A stretch of 64,000 nt of DNA from an uncultured Pseudomonadota bacterium (GTDB taxonomy: Bacteria; Desulfobacterota; Syntrophorhabdia; Syntrophorhabdales; CAYQXL01), in NCBI GenBank assembly GCA_964651435.1, contig CAZYVU010000010.1:11392-75391 (forward strand), written 5' to 3'. This document shows, piece by piece, positions 34,001 through 63,779 of the stretch; position 1 is the stretch's first letter, and each line of letters starts with the position of its first letter. The position numbers and the translations under genes were made by a program. A model generated the notes under the pieces. That model made no database searches and was not told where the DNA came from. It worked only from the letters and a program-made list of their open reading frames with translations.

Positions 34001-37000
34001 GTGAGACGCCCTCTTCCTACGCCCTTGCTGTCACAAGGACCGGTACCGGCGCGGGCGCGGTAGCCTCCTCCCCGGCCGGCATCGACTGCGGGGCCACCTG
34101 CAGCGCCTCCTTCAGCGCCGGCACCGTCGTTACCTTGACCGCAACGCCCGATGCCGGTTCCATCTTTACGGGCTGGTTGGGCAGCGGGTGCTCGGGCACG
34201 GGAACATGTACGGTGACACTGAACAGCAATACGGTGGTTGCCGCCCTCTTTTCACCGGAGGCAACCAGCAATGTGGTGTGGACCTGGGGACACAACGAAT
34301 ATGGCCAGCTCGGGGATGGAACGACGGCGGACAGACACAGCCCGATTGCTGTATCGGGCGTCACGAATGCCGTTGGGATTACCGGTGGGGATGCCCATAC
34401 GCTGGCTGTCACATCGGCCGGTACGGTCTGGGCGTGGGGGTGGAACCTCTATGGCCAGCTCGGGGACGGAACGACGGCGGACAGGCTGAGCCCCGTCCAG
34501 GTGCCGGGCATGGCGGGCGTTGCCGATGCTGGGGCCGGCGCCTCTCATACCGTCGCGGTGAAGTTCGACAGCACGGTCTGGGCCTGGGGAAGCAACAACT
34601 CCGGCCAAGTCGGGGACGGGACGACGACAAACAGGCTAAGCCCCGTTCAGGTGCCGGGGCTGACGGGTGTGGTGGCCATCGCGGCCGGTGGTTACCACTC
34701 CATGGCCCTCAAATCGGACGGGACCGTCTGGGCGTGGGGATGGAATGCATTCGGTCAAATCGGGGACGGGACGACGACAAACAGGCTAAGCCCCGTTCAG
34801 GTGCCGGGGCTGACGGGTGTGGTGGCCATCGCGGCCGGTGCTTACCACTCCATGGCCCTCAAATCGGACGGGACCATCTGGGCGTGGGGAGGAAATATGT
34901 ACGGCCAGGTCGGTGACGGGACAGTGACGGACAGGCTGAGTCCCGTTCAGGTGCCCGCCTTCACCGGTACTAAGGGTATTGCAGCGGGGGGCTTTCACTC
35001 TGTGGCCCTCAAATCGGATGGGACCATCTGGGCGTGGGGGGACAACACCCTGGGACAAATCGGGGACGGCACGACAACGGAACGGCGCAGTCCCGTTCAG
35101 GTGCCGGGCATGGCAGCAGTTGCACGAATCGGAGGCGGCGGCGGACACACGGTAGCCCTCGCGTCGAACGGCACCCTCTGGACTTGGGGCAACAACTCCA
35201 AGGGTCAGATCGGGGACGGAACGACGACGAACAGGCTGAGCCCCGTCCAGGTGCCGGGGCTGACGGCGGTTACGGGGATTGCCGGCGGGTGGAAGCACAC
35301 AATGGCCGTCAGGGCCGGAGGAGAGCCCACTTCCCACACCCTTACCGCCACAAGGACCGGTACCGGCGCGGGCGCGGTAGCCTCCTCCCCGGCCGGCATC
35401 GACTGCGGGGCCACCTGCAGCGCCTCCTTCAGCGCCGGCACCGTCGTTACCTTGACCGCAACGCCCGATGCCGGTTCCATCTTTACGGGCTGGTTGGGCA
35501 GCGGGTGCTCGGGCACGGGAACATGCACAATAACGCTCAGCGGCGACAGCATCGTCGTTGCCCTATTCTCACAGCAGGGAACGGATAGCAGCCTCTGGAC
35601 CTGGGGCAACAACGAGAATGGCCAGCTCGGGGACGGAACGACGACGAACAGGCTAAGCCCCGTTCAGGTGCCGGGGCTGACGGGTCTGCAAGGAACGGCG
35701 GGCGGAGCGGAACACTCAATGGCCCTGAAGTCGGACGGCACGGTCTGGGCATGGGGCAACAATTTCTACGGCCAGCTCGGGGATGGGACGACGACGGACA
35801 GCCTGAGCCCTATCCAGGTGCCGGGGCTCGCGGGCATAGTTGCCGTGGCAGCCGGGGACTATCACAGTGCGGCCTTGAAGTATGATGGTACGGTCTGGAC
35901 CTGGGGATCAAACGGCAACGGACAGCTCGGGGACGGTACGACGACGGACAGCCTGAGCCCTATCCAGGTGCCGGGGCTCGCGGGTGTCATCGACCTTGCG
36001 AGCGGCGGTTATCACATTGTGGCGCTCAAATCGGATGGCACGGTCCGGGCCTGGGGTTGGAACGAGGACGGCCAGATTGGGGACGGAACCACTACAGAGA
36101 GACTGAGCCCTGTCCAGGTGCCGGGGCTCGCGGGTGTTAAAGCTATCGCCACCGGCGACTATCATTCTATGGCCATCAAGTCCGACGGAACGGTCTGGGC
36201 CTGGGGCTGGAATGAGAATGGTCAACTTGGGGATGGGACGACGACGAACGGGCTGAGCCCTGTTCAGGTACCGGGGCTTGCGGGTATGACAGCAGTCGCT
36301 GGCGGGAACTCCCACACCGTTGCCCTAAAATCGGACGGTACGGTCTGGGCCTGGGGTTGGAACGAAGCGGGTCAGCTTGGGGACGGAACGACAACCCAGC
36401 GGCTGAGCCCTGTCCAGACAACGGGGCTGACGGGCGCTGTCACTGTCGCCACCGGCGGCTATCATTCCCTGGCCATCAAGTCGGACGGTACCCTCTGGAC
36501 CTGGGGCTGGAACGAGGACGGTCAACTTGGGGACGGGACGACGACGAACAGGCTGAGCCCTGTCCAGGTACCGGGGCTTGCGGGTATCGCGAAGATTGCC
36601 GCGGGATACGTCCATTCCCTTGCCCTCAAGTTTCCCTCCTCCTATATGCTCACCGTTACTAAGACGGGGGCCGGCACGGGCACCGTGACGTCGTCACCGG
36701 CGGGCATCGACTGCGGGGCCGTCTGCAGCGCCCAGTTCATCCAAACTACGGTCATTACCCTCACTGCCACGGCAGCATCCAACTCCTCCCTAACGGGCTG
36801 GTCAGGCTGTGACAGCACCCCTGCTGCAAACCAATGTGTGGTAACCATGAATGCCGCACGGTTTGTAGAAGCGTCATTCGCGCTGAAGACCTACGTCGTC
36901 ACCCCGTCTGCGGGCGCCAACGGCACGATGACACCTAACACGCCACAGACCGTCACCCATAACGCCACCACCTCTTTTACCGTTACCCCCGCCACGGGCT

Positions 37001-38571
37001 ACCACATCGACTCCGCAACGGGCTGCGGCGGGACCCTTTCGGGCTCCACCTACACCACGGGCCCCATCACCGCCGACTGCACGGTCAGTGCCACCTTTGC
37101 CATTAACACGTACACCATCTCCGCCTCCGTCTCCGGAGGCCACGGCACGGTCACCGTCGTAACCCCTACGGTTCCCCATGGCGGCACGGCTACTATTAAT
37201 ATTTCCCCCGACACGGGTTACCACATAGCAGGCATTACGGACAACGGCATCTCCGTGAGGATAATAAACCCCTACACCATCCAGAACGTCACGGCGGCCC
37301 ACACCATCGTCGCCACCTTTGAAGTGAACAGGTACACGCTCACGGCTACTACATCCGGACCGGGCACCGTAAGCGCCGCCGGCCTCATATGCTCCGGAAG
37401 CACGTGCACGGGCACGTATGATTACGGCACAACCGTGGCAGTGACGGCCGCACCCGCTGCGGGCTCCATGCTGAGCGGCTGGTCAGGCTGTGACAGCTCA
37501 TCGGGTAACACGTGTTCGGTGAGCATGACGTCCGACCGGAGTATCAGCGCAACCTTCATCGTTATCAAGACCTTGACCGTTTCCAAAGCCGGTTCCGGTA
37601 CCGTTGCCTCGGCCCCTCCGGGCATCGCTTGCGGCAGCGCCTGCAGTGCACCGTTCACGCCCGGCACCGTCGTAACGCTCACCCCAACTCCTGACACAGG
37701 GAATGTCTTTGCTTACTGGTCGGGGGCCTGCACGGGTAAGCTTGCGACCTGTCTTGTAACGATGGACGCCGACAAGACGGTGGGGGCCGTCTTCGTGCCG
37801 GCGAAAACAAAGACAGTAAAGCTCACCGTCACAAAGGTGAAGACAGCCAAAGGGGACGGCACCGTCGAGAGCAGCGACGGTACGATCAATTGCGGAAAGG
37901 ATTGCTCGGAACTTTTTTATCCCAATACACCCGTCCTTCTCCGCGCCACCCCCAACGCCGACTCGGTGTTTACCGGCTGGTCGGGCACAGGCATTACCTG
38001 TCCCGGTACGGGGACCTGCTCCGTTACCATGGACAAGGCCTATACGGTGAAGGCTACATTTGTCGGGCCGTCGCTTCTGAAGGTCCAAAAGGCCCCAAAG
38101 AACAAGGGAACGGGCGTCATCACCAGCAGCGACGGCGCCATTGACTGCGGAGAGGAGTGTCAGAAGAGTTATGTTTACAACACCGCCGTCACCCTGACGG
38201 CAACGCCTGATCCCGGCTCCGTCTTCATCTCCTGGACGGGCTGTGATGCTGTGTCGGCAAACGTGTGCACCTTTGCGATGAAAAAAGCGAGGACCGCCAA
38301 GGCCACTTTTGAAGGCCCCGTCATCGTCACGGTGACAAGGGCATACCAGAAGAAGGGCGCGGGGACCGTTACGTCTTCCCCGTCCGGCATCGACTGCGGA
38401 ACCACATGCAAGGCCGGGTTTACGAAGGGGACTGAGGTCACCCTGACGGCTACCCCTGCTGCCGGCTCGGTCTTTGGCGGCTGGTCAGGGGGCGGTTGTT
38501 CGGGGACGGGGACGTGTACCATCACCGCCGAGAAGACTACGACCGTGAGGGCGACGTTTATCGGGAGGTGA
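31015..38571 (+). CDS. Giant secreted protein: 4 x seven-bladed RCC1-like beta-propellers interleaved with 13 Ig-like (divergent InlB B-repeat-type) modules
   Basis: Signal-like N-terminus MGRRLCLFTWTVIAVIFFTFQAYAHA. There are 28 blades with the signature DGTVWxWGxNxxGQLGDGTTxxRxSPVQVxGL, counted 7+7+7+7. The modules are of the type GTVTSSPAGIDCGxxCS..TLTATPxxGSxFxGWSGxxCSGTGTCTVT. Confidence 0.9.
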   Translation: MGRRLCLFTWTVIAVIFFTFQAYAHASGVPGAPQDALEDASDNTVWTWGANFSGELGNGTWEPGTRTPGELADFADVTSVAAGDAFTVALKSDGTVWTWGNNAFGQLGDGTTVNKNVPTQVPTLSDIIAMAAGPYHTVALTSAGTVWAWGRNDYGQVGDGTTTNRLSPVVVAGVTGVTAIAAGYEHTLAVRSDGTVWTWGRNNGGQLGDGTTTNRLSPVQVSVLTGAVRLAGGGWHSMALKSDGTVWTWGSNLHGQLGDGSYDWSVIPKVVPGFAGIANIACGGDYSMALKSDGTVWTWGFGGQGSLGTGEWTNRLSPVQVPGLTGVGGATARACTTIAWKSDGSGFWAWGCNEAGQFGDGTFGYQNPSPTAVSALSGIATMASGAGHTVALANPAPPSSYILTVAKSGTGADAVTSSPAGIDCGATCSYVFTAGTVVTLTATPAAGSMFTGWSGGGCSGTGTCTVTLDADVTVTATFAAMPILTVATSGTGSGTVTSSPAGIDCGATCSYAFTAGTVVTLTATPAAGSMFTGWSGGGCSGTGTCTVTMNSATAVTATFGNTAVLTLTRFGTGLGTVTSSPAGIICGNTCSASFSPGSVVTLTATPAAGSTFLGWLGGGCSGTGTCTVTPGAATMVAAIFSSAATGNMVWAWGDNYYCQIGDGTTTDRLSPVQVPGLTGVVAVAGGGYHSMALTSAGTLWTWGLNEDGQLGDGTRTQRCSPVQVPGLTGVTAISGGWGHSLAVKADGTVWVWGGNGYGQLGDGTTTDRLSPVQVPGMAGVVAAAGGGYHSLVLTSDGTVWAFGHNTNGQLGDGTTTDRLSPVQVPGLTGIVAVAAGGSYSAALRSDGTVWAWGDNYYCQIGDGTTTDRLSPVQVPGLTDVAGIAGGDAHVVAKKTDGTARAWGYNAYGQLGDGTTTKRCSPVQVSGLTNVAGMAGGYGHSPALTSSGTFWAWGRNFNGQLGDGTTTNRSSPGQVPGLTGGLSVSAGWEHSIALRAGETPSSYALAVTRTGTGAGAVASSPAGIDCGATCSASFSAGTVVTLTATPDAGSIFTGWLGSGCSGTGTCTVTLNSNTVVAALFSPEATSNVVWTWGHNEYGQLGDGTTADRHSPIAVSGVTNAVGITGGDAHTLAVTSAGTVWAWGWNLYGQLGDGTTADRLSPVQVPGMAGVADAGAGASHTVAVKFDSTVWAWGSNNSGQVGDGTTTNRLSPVQVPGLTGVVAIAAGGYHSMALKSDGTVWAWGWNAFGQIGDGTTTNRLSPVQVPGLTGVVAIAAGAYHSMALKSDGTIWAWGGNMYGQVGDGTVTDRLSPVQVPAFTGTKGIAAGGFHSVALKSDGTIWAWGDNTLGQIGDGTTTERRSPVQVPGMAAVARIGGGGGHTVALASNGTLWTWGNNSKGQIGDGTTTNRLSPVQVPGLTAVTGIAGGWKHTMAVRAGGEPTSHTLTATRTGTGAGAVASSPAGIDCGATCSASFSAGTVVTLTATPDAGSIFTGWLGSGCSGTGTCTITLSGDSIVVALFSQQGTDSSLWTWGNNENGQLGDGTTTNRLSPVQVPGLTGLQGTAGGAEHSMALKSDGTVWAWGNNFYGQLGDGTTTDSLSPIQVPGLAGIVAVAAGDYHSAALKYDGTVWTWGSNGNGQLGDGTTTDSLSPIQVPGLAGVIDLASGGYHIVALKSDGTVRAWGWNEDGQIGDGTTTERLSPVQVPGLAGVKAIATGDYHSMAIKSDGTVWAWGWNENGQLGDGTTTNGLSPVQVPGLAGMTAVAGGNSHTVALKSDGTVWAWGWNEAGQLGDGTTTQRLSPVQTTGLTGAVTVATGGYHSLAIKSDGTLWTWGWNEDGQLGDGTTTNRLSPVQVPGLAGIAKIAAGYVHSLALKFPSSYMLTVTKTGAGTGTVTSSPAGIDCGAVCSAQFIQTTVITLTATAASNSSLTGWSGCDSTPAANQCVVTMNAARFVEASFALKTYVVTPSAGANGTMTPNTPQTVTHNATTSFTVTPATGYHIDSATGCGGTLSGSTYTTGPITADCTVSATFAINTYTISASVSGGHGTVTVVTPTVPHGGTATINISPDTGYHIAGITDNGISVRIINPYTIQNVTAAHTIVATFEVNRYTLTATTSGPGTVSAAGLICSGSTCTGTYDYGTTVAVTAAPAAGSMLSGWSGCDSSSGNTCSVSMTSDRSISATFIVIKTLTVSKAGSGTVASAPPGIACGSACSAPFTPGTVVTLTPTPDTGNVFAYWSGACTGKLATCLVTMDADKTVGAVFVPAKTKTVKLTVTKVKTAKGDGTVESSDGTINCGKDCSELFYPNTPVLLRATPNADSVFTGWSGTGITCPGTGTCSVTMDKAYTVKATFVGPSLLKVQKAPKNKGTGVITSSDGAIDCGEECQKSYVYNTAVTLTATPDPGSVFISWTGCDAVSANVCTFAMKKARTAKATFEGPVIVTVTRAYQKKGAGTVTSSPSGIDCGTTCKAGFTKGTEVTLTATPAAGSVFGGWSGGGCSGTGTCTITAEKTTTVRATFIGR
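32275..32658 (+). repeat. Intragenic direct repeat: two 141-nt copies (32275-32415, 32518-32658), 1 mismatch
   Basis: Read directly. The offset is 243 nt (81 codons). It covers adjacent Ig-like modules. Confidence 0.9.
34032..35525 (+). repeat. Intragenic long-range direct repeat: identical 177-nt blocks at 34032-34208 and 35349-35525
   Basis: Read directly. The offset is 1317 nt (439 codons). Both encode TRTGTGAGAVASSPAGIDCGATCSASFSAGTVVTLTATPDAGSIFTGWLGSGCSGTGTC. Confidence 0.85.
34610..34890 (+). repeat. Intragenic tandem repeat: two 131-nt copies (34610-34740, 34760-34890), 2 mismatches
   Basis: Read directly. The offset is 150 nt, which is one RCC1 blade. Confidence 0.85.
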
Positions 38572-42008: not shown

Positions 42009-42137
42009 GAGAAATTTGATCCGGGGCATCCATGTCTTTCGTAAGAAAACAGATGATATTCTCACCCTGATAGGCTATATTTATGACCGGGGAAGCTTCT
42101 GGAGGTGATTACAAATCATCACAAGGAGGCTTTACCT

Positions 42138-42695
42138 ATGGAAGAGAAGCTCGCAAACCCGGCACCGCTCGGCCTCATGGGATTCGGCATGACAACGGTG
42201 CTCCTCAACATCCACAATGCCGGCTTTTTCCCCATCGGGTCCATGATCCTCGCCATGGGCTTGTGCTACGGGGGGCTGGCCCAGATCATTGCCGGCATCA
42301 TGGAGTTCAAGAAGGGCAACACCTTCGGATTTACCGCTTTTACGTCATACGGCCTCTTCTGGTGGACCCTCGTGTTTATCCTCGTTTTCAAGGCCCTTCC
42401 CGGCAATCCCGAACCTTTTATGGGCTGGTATCTCTTCATGTGGGGACTCTTCACCTTCTTCATGTGGTTCGGCACCTTCGGCAAGAACAGGCTCATCCAG
42501 TTCGTATTTCTGAGTCTCACCATCCTCTTCTGGCTCCTGGCCATTCGCGATTGGACGGGAAGTCACACCGTCGGCACCATAGCGGGCTGGGAAGGCATCA
42601 TCTGCGGCCTTTCGGCGGTCTACCTCGCCATGGCTGAGGTGCTCAACGAGGCAAAGGGTCGGACCGTTCTGCCAATCGGGGACCTGGGCAAGTAA
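42138..42695 (+). CDS. satP: GPR1/FUN34/YaaH family acetate/succinate transporter
   Basis: [23 protein letters not shown] is the family signature. There are six hydrophobic segments. AGGAGG RBS before the ATG at 42138. Confidence 0.88.
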
Positions 42696-52985: not shown

Positions 52986-53960
52986 ATGAAGATTGTAACG
53001 TTGGAAGAGGGGTTTCTGACCCCGGATGTACTGAAGATATTTGGCGAGAAGGCCGACACAGATCCGTACACCATGAAGACTTCCGCCGCCCTCGTCGGCA
53101 CCAATGTGATGGAGGCGTATCTGGACCTGGGGGAAGGGCGGATTGCCGCCATGGACGAAGCGGGAATCGATATGCAGGTCCTTTCCTTTTCCGCGCCCCA
53201 GATTGCAGATACCGAGACGGCCATTCACATCATGACGGAGGCCAACGATAAGGCCGCAGAAGCCGTCAGCAAATATCCATCGCGATTTGCCGCCTTTGCA
53301 GCACTGACGGCAACGGATCCCTCGGCCGTCGTTACGGAATTTGAGCGGGTCTTGGCTAAGCCGGGCTTTGTGGGCGGATTCATCTGCGGAACCATGAACG
53401 GCGAATTCCTCGATGAGAGGAAATATTGGCCCATTCTTGAGTGCGCCGAGGCGCATCGTGCGCCCATCTATCTCCATCCGTATTTTCCTCTTCCCGGGGT
53501 TATGCAGACCTATTTCAAAGGGCGGGAAGAGCTATCGGCGCCGGTATGGGGCTTCATGGTCGACGCGAGCTGTCATTTTCTTCGGCTGCTGACGGCCGGG
53601 GTCTTTGACCAGTTCCCGGAACTGAAGATCATCCTGGGGCACCTCGGCGAATCGATCCCCTACAACCTTGACAGGATCAACACGCGCCTATCCGCCTTCG
53701 CACGCGAGAAGCTAAAAAGAAGCCCGGCGGACTATATTCTGAACAATCTGGTCATCACGACCAGCGGCAACTTCTCTCCTCAGTCGCTGCTATGCGCAAT
53801 GAACACGATCGGCGCAGACAATATTCTATTTTCGGCTGACTGGCCCAACGAATCGAACAAAACGGCCGTCGATTTCCTGGAACACCTGCCCGTCAGCAGA
53901 CCCGATCTGGAAAAGATTGCTTACAGGAACGCGGAACGGGTGCTCGGGTTAACGTCATAA
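52986..53960 (+). CDS. Amidohydrolase-2 (ACMSD-like decarboxylase/hydrolase) family protein
   Basis: Size and pattern (IDMQVLS.., YLHPYFP, ILGHLGE, FSADWP) are typical of PF04909-type TIM-barrel metal hydrolases. GGAGG RBS. Confidence 0.75.
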   Translation: MKIVTLEEGFLTPDVLKIFGEKADTDPYTMKTSAALVGTNVMEAYLDLGEGRIAAMDEAGIDMQVLSFSAPQIADTETAIHIMTEANDKAAEAVSKYPSRFAAFAALTATDPSAVVTEFERVLAKPGFVGGFICGTMNGEFLDERKYWPILECAEAHRAPIYLHPYFPLPGVMQTYFKGREELSAPVWGFMVDASCHFLRLLTAGVFDQFPELKIILGHLGESIPYNLDRINTRLSAFAREKLKRSPADYILNNLVITTSGNFSPQSLLCAMNTIGADNILFSADWPNESNKTAVDFLEHLPVSRPDLEKIAYRNAERVLGLTS

Positions 53961-54221
53961 GGGAGAGGGCCGCCTCGGACATCCTTTCGCTCATCTGCCA
54001 AGAACAAGTGCCAAACGGTCAGGTACTGGAGCGGCAAGTTCGCCGCTGCGATGTCCCGTTCCCTGGGGGAGTCGCGAGACACTCCTGATGGGCCGGCACC
54101 CGTTCTAAGAGATTGGGTTCGTACCAGAACCGCATGTCAAACCCACACCGTTGCCATAGTGGCAGTCCTGCGTTGCTACTGAGCCATCATCACAGCCTGT
54201 CATTCCGCTGCCCGTTGCTAC

Positions 54222-54368
54222 CTAGACCGTCGGCATACACCATCCCGAAGCCGAAACGCCATCTCCGTTGGAGCAGTGTCCATCATTGACCGCATCAGAA
54301 CCACTTATGCACTGTCCCACGGCGAGTCTACTGGAAAGCGAAATACATTGCGGCACTTCGTATCGCAT
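54222..54368 (-). CDS. Small Cys-periodic peptide (48 aa; continues in frame past a TAG to 54105)
   Basis: GGGGAG RBS then ATG at 54368, giving MRYEVPQCISLSSRLAVGQCISGSDAVNDGHCSNGDGVSASGWCMPTV. Cys residues fall at 8, 20, 32 and 44. A promoter-like element lies upstream. Confidence 0.45.
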   Translation of the reverse strand: MRYEVPQCISLSSRLAVGQCISGSDAVNDGHCSNGDGVSASGWCMPTV

Positions 54369-54407
54369 AGCTACTCCCCCTTTCCCCTTGACCTCATTGA
54401 AGAGCAA

Positions 54408-54521
54408 CGTATGTTTTGAAAATAGCAGCGATTTTACCGATCGTCAAGGGATAGTTTTCCCCTTCCCTGTTTCCCAATGCGTACAACAGAACTTTTTTCT
54501 GCGGTTAGAACCCGGTTAGAA
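54408..54521. repeat. 114-bp direct repeat, copy A (partner at 58555-58668)
   Basis: CGTATGTTTTGAAAATAGCAGCGATTTTAYCGATCGTYAAGGGATAGTTTTCCCC ... TTCTGCGGTTAGAACCCGGTTAGAA is shared. The ends are nearly identical and the middle is diverged. Weaker similarity extends ~37 bp further left in both copies. Confidence 0.9.
54419..54447 (-). promoter_or_regulatory. Putative sigma70-type promoter (TTGACG-N17-TATTTT) for the peptide gene
   Basis: On the minus strand the -35 is at 54447-54442 and the -10 at 54424-54419. Upstream are two TTCTAACCG direct repeats with 11-bp period (plus-strand CGGTTAGAA at 54502-54510 and 54513-54521). Confidence 0.45.
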
Positions 54522-54576
54522 TCTCTCTCCTGCACCAAAAACGTCCCGGGAACTTTCCCTGAGCCGTTGTCTGCGT

Positions 54577-54626
54577 TGGTTGCGGGGATTGGATTTGAAC
54601 CAATGACCATCGGGGATGAGCCGGTT
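54577..54626 (-). pseudogene. tRNA-fMet-like 3' half remnant (anticodon arm to CCA), no 5' half
   Basis: Minus-sense AACCGGCTCATCCCCGATGGTCATTGGTTCAAATCCAATCCCCGCAACCA. The T-arm ATTGG-TTCAAAT-CCAAT and the 3' end CCCCGCAACCA mirror the initiator tRNA 3' end. A CAT anticodon lies in a degenerate loop. No matching CGCGGGG 5' strand occurs within 350 nt. Confidence 0.6.
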
Positions 54627-55065
54627 AAGTGACCTTAAATCAAGCAATGACAGGTATCGCGAGGAGAGACCACGACTTACCCCTGCTCTACGGTGTGTCG
54701 TGAGATTGGTCTTTGTGGATGACAAAAAGACATTTTTCAGGAATACTCAAAATGGTATAGTTTTGGATATCAATAATGCCGACGGACTCTCTATATGAAC
54801 GCGGGCTCAAGGGAAAGAGTTGCCCATGCATATTAGATTAAAGATCCGGGAGCCCTCCGGGATTGTTGGTATCTACAAGAAGCGCTCACTATACCTATCC
54901 ATGACGGGGTACCGATAATTATGCCCGAAATGAAAGAAGATCTGTCGGTTGAGTCTTCAGAGGAGGATTAGGTTTTGTCCGTAGAAACCGAAGACCCCAT
55001 TGGGACAAACGCCTGAGGCTTATTCAACAATTGGTTGCGGCTCATTGCAGAGACAGGAGGAATCC

Positions 55066-57432
55066 ATGGATAAAGACATCACTCAGGGTCGGTTTGACGG
55101 CCTGTCGCGTCGAAGATTTCTTGCAATGCTGGGGGCTGCCGGCGCAACTCTTGCTGCATACAAGATCGGTGCAAAGAGGGCGTCTGCCGCCGAGAGTATT
55201 GAACCCGTTTCCGTTCAGGACGTACAACAGGGCGAGGACATCTTTGCATACATAAAGAGAATGAAAGGCGGTTTTGATCAGAGATTCTTCCAGCAGGTTA
55301 TCGGCGCCGCCAATGAGTTCAAAGAAGGAGACTTGACGATCGGAGTAGGTGCTAAGGATGACGCTGCCCGTCACAATGCCCGCGCTCTTCTGTCGAGCAC
55401 GAAGATCAAAGACCTCTATGAGCATCCCCTTCTCGTAGACAGCCTCCAGAAATTGATCTGGCAGACTACCGACCAGGCCCGGTATGCCGAGATTAAAGAG
55501 TGGACCATGGGGCGGTTGAAAGAATTTCTCCTTACACAGCCCGAGGTCGAGATTAAAGCCATTATGGCTGGTCTCACAAGCGACACCATCGGCTGCGTGC
55601 CCAAGCTGATGACCAATGAAGAGCTTATAAAACTGAGTCAAAAGATCTTCAACGTGCTGCCCGGCGCCAAAATAGGGGCAAAAGGCTACATGGGCGCCCG
55701 CATCCAGCCCAATTCACCAACAGACCATCCCGATGATGTGGCGTGGCAGGTTTTTGACGCATTTTCCTATGCAACTGGTGATATCGTCATCGGGACCAAC
55801 CCCGTCGACAGCCAGGTCAAGAATAACCTTGCGGTGCAAAAGACCCTCAGAGAGATTGTGGAAGCATTCCAACTCCAGGATACGATCCCCTGGTGCGTGC
55901 TTGCCCATATCGACGTGCAGGCAGAGGTGAGAAAACAATATCCCGGAATGGTCGAAACGATGTTCCAAAGCATCGCCGGAACGGATGACTGCAACAAGAC
56001 CTTCGATGTCACCGTTGATAAGATTCTGCATTATGCGAGATCGAAGAGGGGCGAAAGATACGGGCTTTACTTCGAGACAGGGCAGGGTTCCGAGTTCACC
56101 AACGGGGCGGCAAAGGGCGTCGATATGATGGTGCTCGAGTCCCGTAAATACGGTTTTTCCAGGGCCGTCGGCATGGAGCTGGCCAAAGTTCAGCCCAAAG
56201 GCGCCTGGCTCCACGTCAATGATGTGGCAGGCTTTATCGGGCCTGAAGTCTTCAAGACACGCGATCAATTGGTGCGGTGCTGCCTTGAAGACCTGGCAAT
56301 GGGCAAACTCCATGGACTGACTATCGGCCTCGATATTTGTTCCACCCTTCACATGACAGTGAGTTTGGATGATCTGGATTGGTGCCAGGATCAGATCATG
56401 CCGGCTAACCCCGTGTACCTCATTGCGCTGCCTACCAAGAACGATCCCATGCTTGGGTATCTGACAACGGCCTTTCAGGACCATGTTCGCTTGAGAGATA
56501 GATTCGGCTATAAAGTTGACGATGCAATGTGGAGTTTCTATAAAAGGATCGGGATCGTCGATAAGAACAACGGATATACAGGCCATTTCGGGGATCCGCT
56601 CTGGGTCTATTACCAGTATTGTCTTGCCAAGGAAGACGCACGCTCGAAGGACGCCATCTATGCCGAGGGGAAACGAAAAATGAAAGAGGTGGAGGAGAGA
56701 GGCGTTGATTTGGCCACCGGTCATGGCAAACATCTCTGGGATCTCAATCCCGAACTGGCGGCCAAAGTTACAACGCTCTACCATGATGCAAAAAAATGTA
56801 TCCGGACGGAACTCACCCCCGAGTTCGTAAAAACAATACCCAATGCGTTGCCGATCAAGACTCTATCCGGGAGCCGCGATGAGTACATTTCCCACCCCGA
56901 AACAGGTGAAAAGTTACGCCCTCAGTCGATAACGGCCCTGGTAAAACTGAGAGATTCCTGGGTAGACCCGGCTAACCCGGTCAAAGGCCAAATCGTCATT
57001 TCCGACGGTCTGAACGCCAACGCCATTATGGACGAGAACCACCTTGCCCCGTATCTCGCTGAAATACGAAAACTCTTTGCCGAGGCCGGCGTTACGCTGA
57101 GCAATACAAACATCGTCGTCACCGGAGGAAGGGTCCGCGCAGGATACAGGATTGGGGAGCTGCTCTTTGAAAAGTCGAACGCCAACGAGTTTAGAGCCGT
57201 CCTGCACATCATCGGCGAACGGCCCGGAACCATGCATCATTCCTATTCCGTCTACATCACGGTTGTAAGGGGCAGCGTGTGGGCGCAGAAAAAAATCGAC
57301 CATGACATAACAAAGGTCGTCTCCAATATCGCCGATACGGCCTTACCGCCCAAGGAAGCGGCTCGGGAGACGTTGATGATCATACGGGAGCTGGTAGGGA
57401 AAGAAGCCCATAACAGCCGCCGCCTCCGCTGA
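55066..57432 (+). CDS. Ethanolamine ammonia-lyase-like EutB-EutC fusion with an N-terminal twin-arginine (Tat) signal
   Basis: Tat signal SRRRFLAMLGAAGATLAA...ASAAE. The EutB part has ARIQPN, GDIVIGTNPV, VLAHI, LYFETGQGSEF, GFIGPEV and YLTTAFQDH. The EutC part has VISDGLNANAI, GGRVRAGYRIGELL, IIGERPG and VSNI. AGGAGG RBS before the ATG at 55066. Confidence 0.85.
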   Translation: MDKDITQGRFDGLSRRRFLAMLGAAGATLAAYKIGAKRASAAESIEPVSVQDVQQGEDIFAYIKRMKGGFDQRFFQQVIGAANEFKEGDLTIGVGAKDDAARHNARALLSSTKIKDLYEHPLLVDSLQKLIWQTTDQARYAEIKEWTMGRLKEFLLTQPEVEIKAIMAGLTSDTIGCVPKLMTNEELIKLSQKIFNVLPGAKIGAKGYMGARIQPNSPTDHPDDVAWQVFDAFSYATGDIVIGTNPVDSQVKNNLAVQKTLREIVEAFQLQDTIPWCVLAHIDVQAEVRKQYPGMVETMFQSIAGTDDCNKTFDVTVDKILHYARSKRGERYGLYFETGQGSEFTNGAAKGVDMMVLESRKYGFSRAVGMELAKVQPKGAWLHVNDVAGFIGPEVFKTRDQLVRCCLEDLAMGKLHGLTIGLDICSTLHMTVSLDDLDWCQDQIMPANPVYLIALPTKNDPMLGYLTTAFQDHVRLRDRFGYKVDDAMWSFYKRIGIVDKNNGYTGHFGDPLWVYYQYCLAKEDARSKDAIYAEGKRKMKEVEERGVDLATGHGKHLWDLNPELAAKVTTLYHDAKKCIRTELTPEFVKTIPNALPIKTLSGSRDEYISHPETGEKLRPQSITALVKLRDSWVDPANPVKGQIVISDGLNANAIMDENHLAPYLAEIRKLFAEAGVTLSNTNIVVTGGRVRAGYRIGELLFEKSNANEFRAVLHIIGERPGTMHHSYSVYITVVRGSVWAQKKIDHDITKVVSNIADTALPPKEAARETLMIIRELVGKEAHNSRRLR

Positions 57433-57487
57433 GAATACATGCAAGGCCGAAGGCACAGGCCAAGGCGGTGAACAGAGGAAGCCGGCA

Positions 57488-58519
57488 ATGAAAGAAGAGG
57501 CGCAGATGAATGCCCTTTGTGTATCAATTGTTTTCGCATTATTTCTGGCAGGTTTTGCCATCCCCGGCGACTCGTACGGAAAAGATGAGGCGGTGCGGTA
57601 TGCTGTTGTGGACAACCACATCCACTTCCTCGATTTTGTCCAGGAAACGGACGGCTTCGAACGGCTCATTCAGGCCATGGACAAGGCCGGCGTTGAGAAG
57701 GCGGTCATCTTCGGTGTGCCGGTCGTAAAAACCTGGACAGAGGCAGACCCGGTTCGGCCGGTCTACTACCTTGACACGGATTCTCCCGCTTACTATTTCA
57801 GCGGCACAGACTTCATCCTTGCCCACGACCTCTCACGGCAACCGCCCGAGGTAAGGAGAAGATTCTTCCCCTTTCTGTGCGGATTCAACCCCGTAGACAT
57901 GAACGCTGCAAAGCAGATCGAGTTGATGCTGAAGACGTACCCGGGGTTCTGGAGGGGCATCGGCGAGATCATGTCTCGCCACGACGAATTGACCGCCTTC
58001 ATCCATGGTCAGACCCCCCGTGCGGACCACCCGGCGCTGATGCTCGTCTACAAGTTTGCAGCCGCTCAAGGGCTCCCCGTTCTTATCCACCATAACATCT
58101 CCTCCGCCCGGAAGGAAGATCCTATCTATTTGAGAGAACTGGAGCATGCCATACGGGAAAATCCCCGGACGGTCTTTATCTGGGCGCATGGCGGTATCTC
58201 GCGGCGCCTTGAGGTCCCCTCTTTGCTCACCGATCTCAGGAGAATGCTATCGGCTTACCCGAACCTCTCCATCGATATCTCGTGGGTCATTTACCCTGAC
58301 TATATAGCAAAAGACAAAGAATCAATGGCGAGGTGGGTCGCTTTCATAGAAGAGTTCCCGGACAGGGTCGTGATCGGCTCCGATATGGTCGGGCACTGGA
58401 AAACATATCCCCGGGAAATCATGAAGTACTACCGCCTGCTCGACTCCCTCAAGCCCGCCACGGCGGAGAAAGTTGCGAGAAGCAACATCCTGCGCCTCCT
58501 CGGCGAGAAGGCTCCTTAG
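57488..58519 (+). CDS. Periplasmic amidohydrolase (TIM-barrel metal-dependent hydrolase)
   Basis: Sec-type signal NALCVSIVFALFLAGFAIPG. VVDNHIHFLDF (HxH metal motif), LIHHN, FIWAHGG and VIGSDM. Confidence 0.8.
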   Translation: MKEEAQMNALCVSIVFALFLAGFAIPGDSYGKDEAVRYAVVDNHIHFLDFVQETDGFERLIQAMDKAGVEKAVIFGVPVVKTWTEADPVRPVYYLDTDSPAYYFSGTDFILAHDLSRQPPEVRRRFFPFLCGFNPVDMNAAKQIELMLKTYPGFWRGIGEIMSRHDELTAFIHGQTPRADHPALMLVYKFAAAQGLPVLIHHNISSARKEDPIYLRELEHAIRENPRTVFIWAHGGISRRLEVPSLLTDLRRMLSAYPNLSIDISWVIYPDYIAKDKESMARWVAFIEEFPDRVVIGSDMVGHWKTYPREIMKYYRLLDSLKPATAEKVARSNILRLLGEKAP

Positions 58520-62156: not shown

Positions 62157-63779
62157 TAGGAGCCTGTCGGACTTTTCCCGTCCAATAACCATCGTAATAG
62201 GTTATAATCATTCATCTTTAAAGCAACTACCCCCAGGAGCGTACGAGAATGAGTGTGCGGTTTGTCGACTGCGATCGAGCCACCCCCTACTTACTTCCTC
62301 CCTCACTGGAAGACTGGCTGCCCGAAGGCCATCTTGCCAGGTTTGTGGTGGAGATTGTGGAACGCCTTGACCTTCGTTCAATACGAGACTCCTATACCGG
62401 CCGGGGGTCTTACCCCTACGAGCCTGCGATGCTCGCAGCGCTGCTTTTCTACGGCTACGCAATGGGAGTGTTCTCCAGCAGAAAGCTGGAGGCGAGCACC
62501 TATGATTCTGTTGCATTCCGGTACATTGCCGCCAACAGTCACCCCGATCACGACACCATCGCCAGTTTCCGGAAGAGATTCCTGCCGGAACTGGAAAGCC
62601 TCTTTACGCAGATCCTTGCCATTGCAGGACAGATGGGGGTTCTCAAGCTGGGGGCCGTGAGTCTCGATGGCACGAAGGTGAAGGCAAATGCATCCAAACA
62701 TAGGGCGCTCAGTTATGGTCATGCGACCGTGCTTGAGGAGCAATTGAGGGCTGAGGTTGCCGACCTGATGCGACGGGCGGAAGCTGCCGACGAGACGGAC
62801 ATTCCCGACGGCATGAGCATTCCCGAAGAGCTGGCCCGACGGGAAAAGCGGCTCACGGCAATTGCCCAAGCGAAGGCCGAGATCGAGCGACGGGCCCAAG
62901 AGCGCCATGCCGCTCAAGCGGAAGCCTATGCGAACAAGGTGGCCGAGCGGGTGAAGCAGGAGCACGCTACCGGCAAGAAGCCTAACGGTCCGGCGCCGCA
63001 GGCGCCCCTTCCGGGCCCTACCGCCAAAGACCAGGTGAACCTGACCGACGGCGAATCGCGGATCATGCCCGCATCGAACGGCTTCACACAGGCCTATAAC
63101 GCCCAGGCTGCTGTGGATGTGGGTTCCATGCTCATCGTTACCGGACAGATAAGCCAGCACCCCAATGATAAACAGGAGCTGAAGCCGATGCTCGACGCCA
63201 TTGCCTGCCTGCCCGATGCGCTTGGCGCAATCGGCGTCCTGCTTGCCGACAGCGGTTATTTCAGCGAAGCGAACGTGGCGGGCTGCGAAGCAAGGAAGAT
63301 AACCCCCTACATCGCCCCGGGCCGTGAAGCCCACAATCAGTCACTCGTGGAACGATTTACCGAACCGCCCCCCATTCCCTGTGAGGCCGATTGCGTCACT
63401 ACGATGCGACACCGGCTCAAGACGGCTGCCGGCAAAGCGCTCTATGCCCTCCGGAAGAGCACGGCGGAACCGGTGTTCGGGATTATCAAATCGGTGATGG
63501 GGTTCCGCTCTTTTCTCCTGCGTGGTGTTACGGCCGTGAGCGGCGAATGGAACCTGGTATGTATCGCCTGGAACCTGAAGCGGCTTCACGCATTACAGAG
63601 GTAAGAGGAAGTAGATGAGAAGCTCTTCACCAAACACCGCCTACTCTACGGCAGCGAGCAGCGGGCTGAAACAAATGGGGAACAGATGACCGGCACAGAA
63701 GGTGCGCGCGCTCCTTTTTTGAGACGATGACAGTATTCCTGGATGGAGCTATCAAGACTTCAAGTCCGACAGGCTCCTA
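62157..63779 (+). mobile_element. IS1182-family (IS5-like DDE) insertion sequence, apparently intact
   Basis: 18-bp terminal inverted repeats TAGGAGCCTGTCGGACTT (62157-62174) and its complement (63762-63779) enclose a single transposase ORF. Confidence 0.85.
62249..63604 (+). CDS. IS1182 family transposase
   Basis: The N-terminal LLPPSLEDWLPEGHLARFV..YTGRGSYPYEPAMLAALLFYGY..SSRKLE is characteristic of IS1182/IS5-type transposases. The C-terminal DDE region has LADSGYFS and EPVFGIIK. Confidence 0.9.
   Translation: MSVRFVDCDRATPYLLPPSLEDWLPEGHLARFVVEIVERLDLRSIRDSYTGRGSYPYEPAMLAALLFYGYAMGVFSSRKLEASTYDSVAFRYIAANSHPDHDTIASFRKRFLPELESLFTQILAIAGQMGVLKLGAVSLDGTKVKANASKHRALSYGHATVLEEQLRAEVADLMRRAEAADETDIPDGMSIPEELARREKRLTAIAQAKAEIERRAQERHAAQAEAYANKVAERVKQEHATGKKPNGPAPQAPLPGPTAKDQVNLTDGESRIMPASNGFTQAYNAQAAVDVGSMLIVTGQISQHPNDKQELKPMLDAIACLPDALGAIGVLLADSGYFSEANVAGCEARKITPYIAPGREAHNQSLVERFTEPPPIPCEADCVTTMRHRLKTAAGKALYALRKSTAEPVFGIIKSVMGFRSFLLRGVTAVSGEWNLVCIAWNLKRLHALQR

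What the first reader, a model, noticed from the sequence alone, without database searches (positions are those of the whole stretch)
55066..58519. Twin-arginine signal peptide on a fused EutB-EutC (ethanolamine ammonia-lyase-like) enzyme, paired with a periplasmic amidohydrolase
The protein starts MDKDITQGRFDGLSRRRFLAMLGAAGATLAAYKIGAKRASA-AE. This is a textbook Tat signal (SRRxFL, a hydrophobic stretch, AxA). It is followed by a full EutB domain and, after a linker, a EutC domain in one polypeptide.

Ethanolamine ammonia-lyase is normally a cytoplasmic or microcompartment AdoCbl enzyme that needs ATP-dependent reactivation (EutA). No eutA, eutL/K/M/N shell genes, eat/eutH or other eut genes are present in the window. 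The next gene encodes a Sec-signal amidohydrolase.

Export of a folded, cofactor-loaded B12 enzyme by Tat has precedent in other enzyme classes. For an EAL-like enzyme it would imply a periplasmic amino-alcohol deamination step and a different substrate or reactivation logic.
Basis: partly seen in the sequence, partly recalled or inferred. Interest (0 to 1): 0.7.

Follow-up and report, generated by a model that had tools for sequence, protein, structure and literature searches.

The report
Exported fused ethanolamine ammonia-lyase (EutBC)
This gene encodes a B12-dependent ethanolamine-splitting enzyme whose two subunits are fused and which carries an export signal, so it probably works outside the cytoplasm; hundreds of bacterial species have the same arrangement, and I found no paper that reports it.

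Summary
Window 55066-57432(+) is an intact 788-aa ORF with an AGGAGG ribosome-binding site. It has a canonical Tat leader (SRRRFL, mild h-region, KR-ASA|AE), a full EutB domain, a conserved 70-aa connector and a EutC domain. All five EutB substrate-binding residues are conserved.

The leader is not a quirk of this gene. About 110 of the 120 closest homologues carry the RR motif, as do about 64 of 77 evaluable species genomes (Desulfobacterota, Rhizobiales including S. meliloti pSymA, and others). Thirteen orthologues, and a whole 760-aa sister group, carry a short hydrophobic Sec-type signal instead, and some have lipoboxes. Signal-less fused EutBC proteins branch outside this clade. Export is therefore the conserved trait, and the Tat route is not obligatory.

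The pairing with the amidohydrolase is not conserved (0 of 80 loci). Recurrent neighbours elsewhere handle acetaldehyde:
- aldehyde:ferredoxin oxidoreductase with Ech-type hydrogenase in Desulfobacterota;
- AdhP in rhizobia;
- a porin-like protein and a PotD-like binding protein;
- BtuFCD-like genes next to Sec-type copies.

No eutA or shell genes were found.

The best reading is a periplasmic, reactivase-free ethanolamine ammonia-lyase. The fusion was noted in Pelobacter carbinolicus in 2012; I found no report of export. It is a new variant of a known enzyme.

The parts
55055..55060 (+). Shine-Dalgarno AGGAGG, 5 nt before the ATG
   Evidence: Read directly from the sequence.
55066..55188 (+). 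Predicted Tat signal peptide, residues 1-41. It has an n-region, SRRRFL, the h-region AMLGAAGATLAAY, and a c-region with K37-R38 and A39-S-A41 followed by the predicted cleavage site before AE.
   Evidence: TIGR01409 scores 17.7 against a 16.7 cut-off. The motif is conserved in homologues. The presequence is 54 residues long with maximum hydrophobicity 1.87, typical of the Tat-type set and unlike the Sec-type set at 2.9.
55105..55122 (+). Twin-arginine motif S14-R-R-R-F-L19
   Evidence: R16 is invariant and R15 is at least 90% conserved in alignment A1.
55288..56574 (+). EutB (large subunit, TIM-barrel) domain, residues 75-503. It holds R212, Q214, N245, E337 and D423.
   Evidence: Pfam PF06751, E=3e-140. 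NCBIfam NF011649 scores 621 against 554. It aligns to 3ABO_A and 2QEZ_A.
56575..56778 (+). Conserved connector, residues 504-571, between the EutB and EutC domains. It replaces the free EutC N-terminus that carries the microcompartment-targeting peptide in enteric EutC.
   Evidence: Many columns are invariant, e.g. G509-D-P-L-W-V-Y515 and R545-G-V-D548. The EutC profile match starts only at profile position 36.
56779..57399 (+). EutC (small subunit, cobalamin lower-face) domain, residues 572-778
   Evidence: Pfam PF05985, E=7e-31. It aligns to E. coli EutC 3ANY_B and 3ABO_B. It falls below the NCBIfam EutC equivalog cut-off, 82 against 230.
57430..57432 (+). Stop codon of eutBC
57488..58519 (+). 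Downstream Amidohydro_2 protein with a Sec-type leader. It is on the same strand after a 55-nt gap and is probably co-transcribed, but it is not a conserved partner.
   Evidence: Pfam PF04909. No terminator-like site lies in the gap. It is absent next to EutBC in 80 loci. Its family is generally exported.

Best explanation
The gene encodes a single-polypeptide, adenosylcobalamin-dependent ethanolamine ammonia-lyase (EutB fused to EutC) that is exported to the periplasm. In this organism export would go through the Tat pathway.

Proposed mechanism. Steps 1 and 3 rest on sequence and comparative evidence; the rest is inferred.
1. The leader (SRRRFL, a mildly hydrophobic h-region, a KR 'Sec-avoidance' c-region, ASA followed by AE) targets the protein to TatABC.
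2. Because EutB and EutC are one chain, a single signal carries both halves of the cobalamin site. The protein can fold, and possibly bind AdoCbl, before transport.
3. In the periplasm the enzyme converts ethanolamine, or a very close vicinal amino alcohol, to acetaldehyde and ammonium. It uses the same active-site residues as E. coli EutB.
4. Acetaldehyde is uncharged and membrane-permeant. It diffuses into the cytoplasm, where signal-less enzymes consume it. In related genomes these are encoded next door: AOR with an Ech-type hydrogenase in Desulfobacterota, and AdhP in rhizobia.
5. No ethanolamine permease, microcompartment or ATP-dependent EutA reactivase is used.

In this window the gene is an isolated copy in a non-native context. 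Its adjacency to the amidohydrolase is probably incidental.
For: Enzyme identity:
- The EutB and EutC domains and the PDB alignments support it.
- E. coli R160, Q162, N193, E287 and D362 correspond to query R212, Q214, N245, E337 and D423, all invariant in the family.

Export:
- The start codon has a strong SD.
- The Tat motif is conserved in about 110 of 120 homologues and about 64 of 77 species loci.
- Thirteen orthologues, and a 760-aa sister family of over 100 clusters, have classical Sec signals instead. Their median presequence is 31 residues against 51, and hydrophobicity is 2.9 against 2.0.
- Some members have lipoboxes.
- Signal-less fused EutBC proteins fall outside the clade in an NJ tree, and the Tat and Sec types interleave within it.

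Pathway context:
- A sigma54 activator-Ech-AOR-EutBC-porin-like operon occurs in the closest relatives.
- AOR, Fe-ADH, a PotD-like binding protein and a Gcw_chp porin-like protein lie next to the gene in Syntrophus, Syntrophorhabdus and ORM2a.
- AdhP lies immediately upstream in about 30 rhizobial loci and on S. meliloti pSymA.
- BtuFCD-like genes lie beside Sec-type copies.
- P. carbinolicus ferments ethanolamine. It has two fused eutBC genes in the same kind of neighbourhood and has no eutA (PMC3543383).
Against: - There is no experimental localisation for any member.
- No AdoCbl-dependent enzyme is known to work outside the cytoplasm (my knowledge). I found no paper linking EAL and Tat.
- EAL undergoes suicide inactivation, and there is no ATP in the periplasm for reactivation.
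- Canonical EAL is a roughly 500 kDa (alpha-beta)6 complex, too large for Tat as a whole. Export would have to be as a monomer or dimer.
- The TIGR01409 score is only just above its cut-off.
- The EutC domain is divergent and falls below the NCBIfam equivalog cut-off.
- Sec-type orthologues imply periplasmic cofactor loading, for which no AdoCbl source is known.
- The window holds no tat genes and no acetaldehyde-consuming enzyme.
- The AF2 model was too poor to check the cofactor pocket.
Confidence: 0.7

Rival explanations
1. The enzyme is cytoplasmic and the RR leader is a vestige or a chaperone-binding tag, as in E. coli NarG, which keeps a remnant Tat motif. On this view the leader helps cofactor insertion or membrane association but does not drive export.
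For: All characterised EALs are cytoplasmic or in microcompartments. The TIGR01409 score is marginal. The downstream acetaldehyde enzymes are cytoplasmic. The P. carbinolicus paper assumed ethanolamine is taken up.
Against: The leader is complete, with n, h and c regions and an AxA site, and it is conserved. Orthologues replace it with bona fide Sec signals or lipoboxes, which makes sense only if export is the selected function. Signal-less fused forms exist as separate lineages.
Confidence: 0.12
2. One reading: EutBC and the downstream periplasmic amidohydrolase form a two-step periplasmic pathway. The hydrolase would release an amino alcohol from a conjugate and the lyase would deaminate it, possibly acting on a substrate other than ethanolamine.
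For: The two genes are on the same strand with a 55-nt gap and no terminator-like site between them. Both products have export signals. The pair recurs on 4 metagenome contigs that carry the identical protein.
Against: The amidohydrolase is found next to EutBC homologues in 0 of 80 species loci. Relatives at 81-82% identity have other neighbours. DNA similarity to a close relative ends at the borders of the eutBC coding sequence, which indicates a relocated gene. The active site is fully canonical. The amidohydrolase family is widespread on its own.
Confidence: 0.08
3. The protein is exported but has a different chemistry or role. It might act on another vicinal amino alcohol or on choline-like substrates, or it might serve as a periplasmic cobamide-binding or scavenging protein rather than a working lyase.
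For: The family is only about 40% identical to characterised EutB and has an insertion at residues 370-383. The residue aligned to E. coli M392 is Ile. The EutC domain is divergent. Sec-type copies sit beside BtuFCD-like transport genes. The P. carbinolicus authors speculated that one paralogue might use choline.
Against: All five substrate hydrogen-bonding residues and the surrounding motifs are invariant. The neighbours are acetaldehyde-handling enzymes. P. carbinolicus grows on ethanolamine.
Confidence: 0.1

Closest known systems
Canonical two-subunit ethanolamine ammonia-lyase EutB/EutC of E. coli, Salmonella and Listeria (PDB 3ABO, 2QEZ)
   Same: It has the same two domains in the same order as the eutB and eutC genes. 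The substrate-binding residues are identical (R160, Q162, N193, E287, D362). The presumed reaction is the same: AdoCbl-dependent deamination of ethanolamine to acetaldehyde and ammonia.
   Different: - It is one polypeptide, with a conserved 70-aa connector in place of the EutC N-terminal encapsulation peptide.
- It has an N-terminal export signal.
- It is only about 40% identical.
- There are no eutA, shell or permease genes nearby.
- The EutC part falls below the NCBIfam equivalog cut-off.
Fused eutBC genes of Pelobacter (Syntrophotalea) carbinolicus, Pcar_0491 and Pcar_0467 (Aklujkar et al. 2012, PMC3543383)
   Same: [quoted passage not shown] The genome has no eutA. The neighbours are a periplasmic binding protein, a conserved hypothetical membrane protein, AOR, a corrinoid-type ABC transporter and VWA/ATPase genes. 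This is the same neighbourhood I see around the Desulfobacterota homologues.
   Different: The paper does not mention a signal peptide and assumes ethanolamine is taken up. I could not retrieve those two sequences to see which signal type they carry.
Microcompartment-free cytoplasmic EAL systems (short eutBC-eat loci, e.g. Acinetobacter baumannii, PMC9426561)
   Same: EAL works without a metabolosome and without most eut accessory genes.
   Different: Those enzymes have two subunits, are cytoplasmic, and are paired with an ethanolamine permease.
Tat-exported corrinoid enzymes (reductive dehalogenases, RdhA)
   Same: They are the precedent for a corrinoid-containing enzyme with a Tat leader that is loaded with cofactor before export (my knowledge).
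   Different: RdhA uses a tightly bound cob(I/II)alamin for reductive chemistry. It does not use the labile Co-C bond of AdoCbl for radical rearrangement, and it is unrelated in fold.

Membership tests
Ethanolamine ammonia-lyase (EC 4.3.1.7) | Full-length EutB large-subunit domain | tested here: met
   PF06751 covers residues 75-503 and profile positions 6-431 of 435, E=3e-140. NF011649 scores 621 bits against a 554 cut-off.
Ethanolamine ammonia-lyase (EC 4.3.1.7) | EutC small-subunit domain | tested here: inconclusive
   PF05985 scores 107.8 bits against a 25.8 cut-off, so Pfam membership is met. The NCBIfam EutC equivalog NF003971 scores 82 against 230, so that test is not met. The domain is a divergent EutC.
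Ethanolamine ammonia-lyase (EC 4.3.1.7) | Substrate-binding residues of E. coli EutB: R160, Q162, N193, E287, D362. The list is from my knowledge of Shibata 2010 and Mori 2014; the positions were checked on the 3ABO_A alignment. | tested here: met
   They align to query R212, Q214, N245, E337 and D423. All five are invariant in alignment A1.
Ethanolamine ammonia-lyase (EC 4.3.1.7) | Two separate subunits forming (alpha-beta)6 | tested here: not met
   It is a single 788-aa ORF. The oligomeric state could not be tested.
Ethanolamine ammonia-lyase (EC 4.3.1.7) | AdoCbl-dependent conversion of ethanolamine to acetaldehyde and ammonia | not testable with these tools
   This needs an enzyme assay. 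Indirect support comes from acetaldehyde-enzyme neighbours and from P. carbinolicus growing on ethanolamine.
Tat (twin-arginine) substrates | S/T-R-R-x-F-L-K motif at the boundary of the n and h regions | tested here: met
   S14-R-R-R-F-L19 is present. TIGR01409 scores 17.7 against 16.7.
Tat (twin-arginine) substrates | A long leader with a weakly hydrophobic h-region, a basic residue in the c-region, and an AxA cleavage site | tested here: met
   The presequence is 54 residues with maximum hydrophobicity 1.87, against 2.9 in Sec-type orthologues. K37-R38 precede A39-S-A41.
Tat (twin-arginine) substrates | Leader conserved among orthologues | tested here: met
   About 110 of 120 homologues have it. 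About 64 of 77 species loci have it. R16 is invariant.
Tat (twin-arginine) substrates | TatABC-dependent export of the folded protein | not testable with these tools
   No tat genes lie in the window. Localisation needs an experiment.
eut operon / ethanolamine metabolosome | Co-located eutA reactivase, shell genes (eutS/M/N/L/K), eutE/D/G and eutH | tested here: not met
   None was found among the window ORFs scanned. No such cluster recurs in 80 related loci.
Conserved EutBC-amidohydrolase gene pair | Synteny retained in other genomes | tested here: not met
   tblastn of both Amidohydro_2 proteins finds them in 0 of 80 loci, even at E<=1e-3.

The most novel reading that the evidence does not exclude
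Members of this family carry out AdoCbl radical chemistry in the periplasm. In the Sec-signal members the apo-enzyme must fold and pick up adenosylcobamide outside the cytoplasm. That would imply a usable periplasmic AdoCbl pool, either scavenged through BtuB or released by the cell. It would also imply an enzyme that runs without any ATP-dependent reactivase. Placing the enzyme in the periplasm would then be a second solution to acetaldehyde toxicity and ethanolamine transport, an alternative to the microcompartment.
Probability: 0.4. Interest if true: 0.85.

Novelty: new variant of a known kind. Interest (0 to 1): 0.68.

Why it matters
Ethanolamine ammonia-lyase is a textbook AdoCbl radical enzyme. 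It has always been studied as a cytoplasmic or microcompartment enzyme that needs the EutA reactivase.

A large, conserved clade carrying Tat or Sec export signals would move B12 radical chemistry outside the cytoplasm. At least 207 species genomes and thousands of metagenomic proteins belong to it, including S. meliloti pSymA, Geobacteraceae, syntrophs and the benzene degrader ORM2a. This raises three concrete questions:
- How does AdoCbl reach the enzyme?
- How does the enzyme survive without reactivation?
- How do cells handle acetaldehyde without a shell?

It would also change how ethanolamine use is inferred from genomes of soil, sediment and syntrophic bacteria. No permease or microcompartment genes would be needed, and Ech-AOR-EutBC would form an energy-conserving module. 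Cultured, genetically tractable hosts carry the gene, so the idea can be tested directly.

Tried and rejected
- Amidohydrolase partnership. tblastn of nine window neighbours against 80 related loci gave no relevant hit. I rejected it as a conserved system. The two flanking Amidohydro_2 genes are not close paralogues of each other.
- Remnants of AOR or Ech genes in the window. There are none, and similarity to a close relative is confined to the coding sequence.
- Cobalamin riboswitch or other RNA upstream. There were no Rfam hits in the whole window at gathering threshold, none in 53800-55200 at E<=1, and none in six related loci.
- Sigma-54 promoter upstream, looked for because relatives have a sigma54 activator. 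None was found, and matches across the window were below the shuffled expectation. Sigma-70 and terminator scans were at background level.
- AlphaFold2 model from the 25-sequence alignment. Mean pLDDT was 55 and the barrel scored under 50, so it was unusable. I ran no fold search.
- Literature. Eight searches combining EAL or eutBC with Tat, twin-arginine, periplasmic, signal peptide or AdoCbl found nothing on export. Tsoy et al. 2009 is not held.
- I could not retrieve the P. carbinolicus sequences to see which signal type they carry.
Full report
**1. What is in the window**

- The ORF listing shows a 810-aa frame at 55000-57432(+), counted from a TTG.
- The ATG at 55066 is preceded by AGGAGG at 55055-55060.
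- Pfam places EutB at residues 75-503 (E=3e-140, almost the whole profile) and EutC at 572-778 (E=7e-31).
- The NCBIfam EutB subfamily model scores 621 bits against a 554 cut-off. The EutC equivalog scores only 82 against 230. The TIGR01409 Tat-signal model scores 17.7 against 16.7.
- phmmer against PDB sequences aligns residues 74-512 to the EutB of E. coli and Listeria (3ABO_A, 2QEZ_A; E about 1e-60 to 1e-64). It aligns residues 575-781 to E. coli EutC.
- I counted along the 3ABO_A alignment. The E. coli substrate-binding residues R160, Q162, N193, E287 and D362 correspond to query R212, Q214, N245, E337 and D423. The list of residues is from my knowledge of Shibata et al. 2010 and Mori et al. 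2014. All five are invariant in a 25-sequence family alignment. E. coli M392 aligns to Ile.
- The 70 residues between the two domains form a conserved segment with many invariant columns. They are not a loose linker.

**2. Is the leader real?**

- The protein has thousands of homologues. The top 120 are 72-81% identical and about 784 aa long.
- About 110 of these show [ST]RRxF/LL, a weakly hydrophobic stretch and an AxA site. Most exceptions are gene calls that start at a Met inside the h-region. A few have a lipobox (LAGC). One has a Sec-like leader.
- A scan of one genome per GTDB species found 207 species with a relative. The best 80 loci were fetched. They include Syntrophus, Syntrophorhabdus, Geobacteraceae, Desulfobacterales, the benzene degrader ORM2a, Thermodesulfovibrionales, Geminicoccaceae and many Rhizobiales (Ensifer/Sinorhizobium, Rhizobium, Mesorhizobium, Bradyrhizobium, Phyllobacterium).
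- I translated upstream of each match. About 64 of 77 evaluable loci have a Tat leader. Thirteen have a short, strongly hydrophobic leader without RR.
- A search seeded with one of the Sec-type proteins returned 120 more clusters of about 760 aa, nearly all with MKR-hydrophobic-(S/C)A|ITIKDVK leaders.
- The two sets differ as Tat and Sec signals should. Median presequence length is 51 against 31 residues. Maximum 10-residue hydropathy is 2.0 against 2.9. The window protein has 54 and 1.87.
- An alignment of N-termini shows that the mature proteins align from the 'VKxGEDVF' motif onward, while the leaders are of either type.

**3. Where the clade sits**

- An all-against-library HMMER search of 50%-identity representatives found other full-length EutB-EutC fusions down to 30% identity.
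- Several of these begin directly at the EutB core with no leader (P0141, P0142, P0189, P0203, P0209, P0210, P0262). Others have a Tat-lipobox leader (P0130), an RK-lipobox leader (P0121) or a membrane anchor (P0124).
- In a neighbour-joining tree the signal-less fusions are outgroups. The exported proteins form one clade. Sec-type members appear both as a deep branch and scattered among Tat-type members, for example L048 next to L027.
- The tree is a simple NJ tree, so the number of switches is only indicative.
- The pattern still says that fusion came before export, that export is the conserved property, and that the route has changed more than once.
- This argues strongly against a vestigial RR tag. 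It also means that cytoplasmic folding with cofactor, the usual rationale for Tat, cannot be obligatory for this enzyme.

**4. Neighbourhood**

- None of nine window neighbours, including both Amidohydro_2 genes, is found beside a EutBC homologue in the 80 loci, even at E<=1e-3.
- I clustered the flanking ORFs of those loci and scanned representatives with Pfam. The recurrent neighbours differ by lineage:
  - **Rhizobiales.** A cytoplasmic Zn-alcohol dehydrogenase lies immediately upstream in about 30 loci. A phosphoketolase, a GH94 protein and a glucoamylase-family protein are often present too. On S. meliloti pSymA the annotated order is adhP, phosphoketolase, histidine phosphatase, GH94, glucoamylase, 'eutB'.
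  - **Desulfobacterota.** Neighbours are aldehyde:ferredoxin oxidoreductase, an Fe-ADH, a Gcw_chp (TorF-like) porin-like protein, a PotD-like solute-binding protein and RND pumps.
  - **Sec-type deep clade.** Neighbours are Peripla_BP_2/FecCD/ABC-ATPase (BtuFCD-like) genes followed by MoxR, DUF58 and VWA genes.
- The two closest relatives with context (81% identity) sit in the order sigma54 activator, six-subunit Ech-type [NiFe] hydrogenase, AOR, EutBC, porin-like protein.
- That arrangement is a coherent module. Ethanolamine gives acetaldehyde, which gives acetate and reduced ferredoxin, which gives H2 with ion translocation.
- AOR and the alcohol dehydrogenases have no signal peptides. Acetaldehyde would therefore have to cross the membrane, which it does freely.

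**5. The window copy is out of context**

- The window has no AOR or Ech gene. Nucleotide similarity to the close relative L085 covers only about 55105-57435, which is the coding sequence.
- The surrounding 20 kb has lower G+C than the rest of the window (0.52-0.56 against about 0.61).
- An IS-type transposase lies at 62249-63604.
- The rest of the window encodes polysaccharide biosynthesis, an ABC transporter, a xanthine-dehydrogenase-family enzyme, a 2518-aa RCC1-repeat protein and other unrelated functions.
- The identical protein with the same downstream amidohydrolase occurs on four other metagenome contigs. The arrangement is therefore real in this lineage but lineage-specific.
- The amidohydrolase belongs to a widespread family that is itself usually exported. 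In that family 84 of 120 members have a hydrophobic leader and 24 have RR motifs.
- A local functional link cannot be excluded, but nothing supports it.

**6. Literature**

- Aklujkar et al. [quoted passage not shown]
- They note that the genome has no eutA. They list neighbours that match what I see: a periplasmic binding protein, conserved hypothetical proteins, AOR, a corrinoid-type ABC transporter, VWA proteins and an ATPase.
- The organism ferments ethanolamine.
- They assume ethanolamine is taken up and do not mention a signal peptide.
- Eight full-text searches found no paper connecting EAL with Tat, Sec or the periplasm.
- The library lacks many subscription papers, so an earlier mention cannot be ruled out.
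- GenBank annotation of the S. meliloti gene is simply 'ethanolamine ammonia-lyase subunit EutB'.

**7. Mechanism and its weak points**

The best-supported reading is a periplasmic, single-chain, AdoCbl-dependent ethanolamine ammonia-lyase.

- Shown here: enzyme family, active-site conservation, a conserved export signal of two interchangeable types, absence of eut accessory genes, and association with acetaldehyde-consuming enzymes.
- Inferred: actual localisation, cofactor loading before Tat export, diffusion of acetaldehyde inward, and operation without reactivation.

Open problems:
- the source of AdoCbl for Sec-type members;
- turnover-linked inactivation with no ATP available;
- the size of the canonical hexamer relative to what Tat can carry.

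The AF2 model was too poor to add anything.

**8. Verdict**

- The Tat-EutBC enzyme is real and is part of a large, unrecognised exported clade.
- The amidohydrolase pairing and the idea of a different substrate are not supported.
- The 'folded holo-enzyme via Tat' logic needs to be widened to account for Sec-type orthologues.
- This is a new variant of a known enzyme kind. It is of clear interest to B12 enzymology and to the reading of anaerobic and soil metabolism from genomes. It can be tested directly in cultured hosts.

Noticed in passing
L085:974-11351 and L086:3-9741: The closest relatives (81% identity) place eutBC in an apparent operon: PAS/sigma54 activator, six-subunit Ech/Mbh-type [NiFe] hydrogenase, aldehyde:ferredoxin oxidoreductase, EutBC, and a Gcw_chp porin-like protein. 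This looks like an energy-conserving module that turns ethanolamine into acetate and H2. The same parts recur in L036 (Syntrophorhabdus), L079 (ORM2a), L067 and L073.
   Followed up: partly
L077:12381-22262; also L075, L081, L082: Sec-signal EutBC copies are followed by BtuFCD-like genes (ABC ATPase, Peripla_BP_2, FecCD) and a MoxR-DUF58-VWA (Bat-like) set. This matches the description of the P. carbinolicus eutBC2 locus. Why a corrinoid-type importer and a VWA/MoxR system accompany an exported B12 enzyme is unexplained.
   Followed up: partly
P0122 (1110 aa), P0251 (1144 aa): These are long proteins with N-terminal extensions followed by EutB and EutC. P0122 has two C2 domains in its extension. 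They are 31-51% identical to the query. C2 domains suggest a eukaryotic origin, and a membrane-targeted eukaryotic EAL fusion would be unusual.
   Followed up: partly
P0141, P0142, P0189, P0203, P0209, P0210, P0262: There are several separate lineages of EutB-EutC fusions with no signal peptide, 685-750 aa long and 29-39% identical to the query. The fusion itself is therefore widespread and older than the exported clade.
   Followed up: partly
L087 (S. meliloti pSymA, CP140920.1 1427278-1447617): In S. meliloti and many rhizobia the Tat-EutBC gene ends a block made of adhP, phosphoketolase, histidine phosphatase, a GH94 glycosyl hydrolase (1288 aa) and a glucoamylase-family protein. A CBS-domain protein is often nearby in other rhizobial loci. 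The link between glucan or phosphoketolase metabolism and ethanolamine is unexplained.
   Followed up: no
window 42000-64000; 62249-63604: G+C drops from about 0.61 to 0.52-0.56 over the last 22 kb. A DDE_Tnp_1/DUF772 transposase lies 4.8 kb downstream of eutBC. Similarity to relatives stops at the borders of the eutBC coding sequence. The region looks rearranged or acquired.
   Followed up: partly
window 53961-55065: A 1.1-kb stretch upstream of eutBC has no convincing ORF, no Rfam match and only background promoter or terminator matches. Relatives have only 65-100 nt between AOR and eutBC.
   Followed up: partly
window 31015-38571 (+): A single 2518-aa ORF is made of about 28 RCC1 repeats (seven RCC1-like propeller domains) followed by eight divergent InlB B-repeat domains. 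It is a giant, probably surface-associated, repeat protein.
   Followed up: no
window 57488-58519 and its homologues P0271-P0390: The downstream Amidohydro_2 family is almost always exported, by Sec, lipoprotein or Tat leaders. Some members are fused to PF09394 or Big_2 domains. No function is assigned. The upstream Amidohydro_2 gene (52986-53960) has no leader and is only remotely related to it.
   Followed up: partly
CP113000.1 (ORM2a): L079:9920-12241 and P0471: The anaerobic benzene degrader ORM2a carries two different Sec-type EutBC copies on its chromosome. One lies between AOR and an Ech-type hydrogenase.
   Followed up: no
window 42105-42695 (+): A GPR1/FUN34/YaaH (SatP-type acetate/succinate channel) gene lies 12 kb upstream of eutBC. 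Acetate is the expected end product of ethanolamine oxidation, but there is no evidence linking the two genes.
   Followed up: no
window 55066-57432, residues 370-383: Relative to E. coli and Listeria EutB, the family has an insertion of about 11 residues (MELAKVQPKGAWLH) between barrel elements. The residue aligned to E. coli M392 is Ile. The effect on the active-site lid or on specificity is unknown.
   Followed up: no
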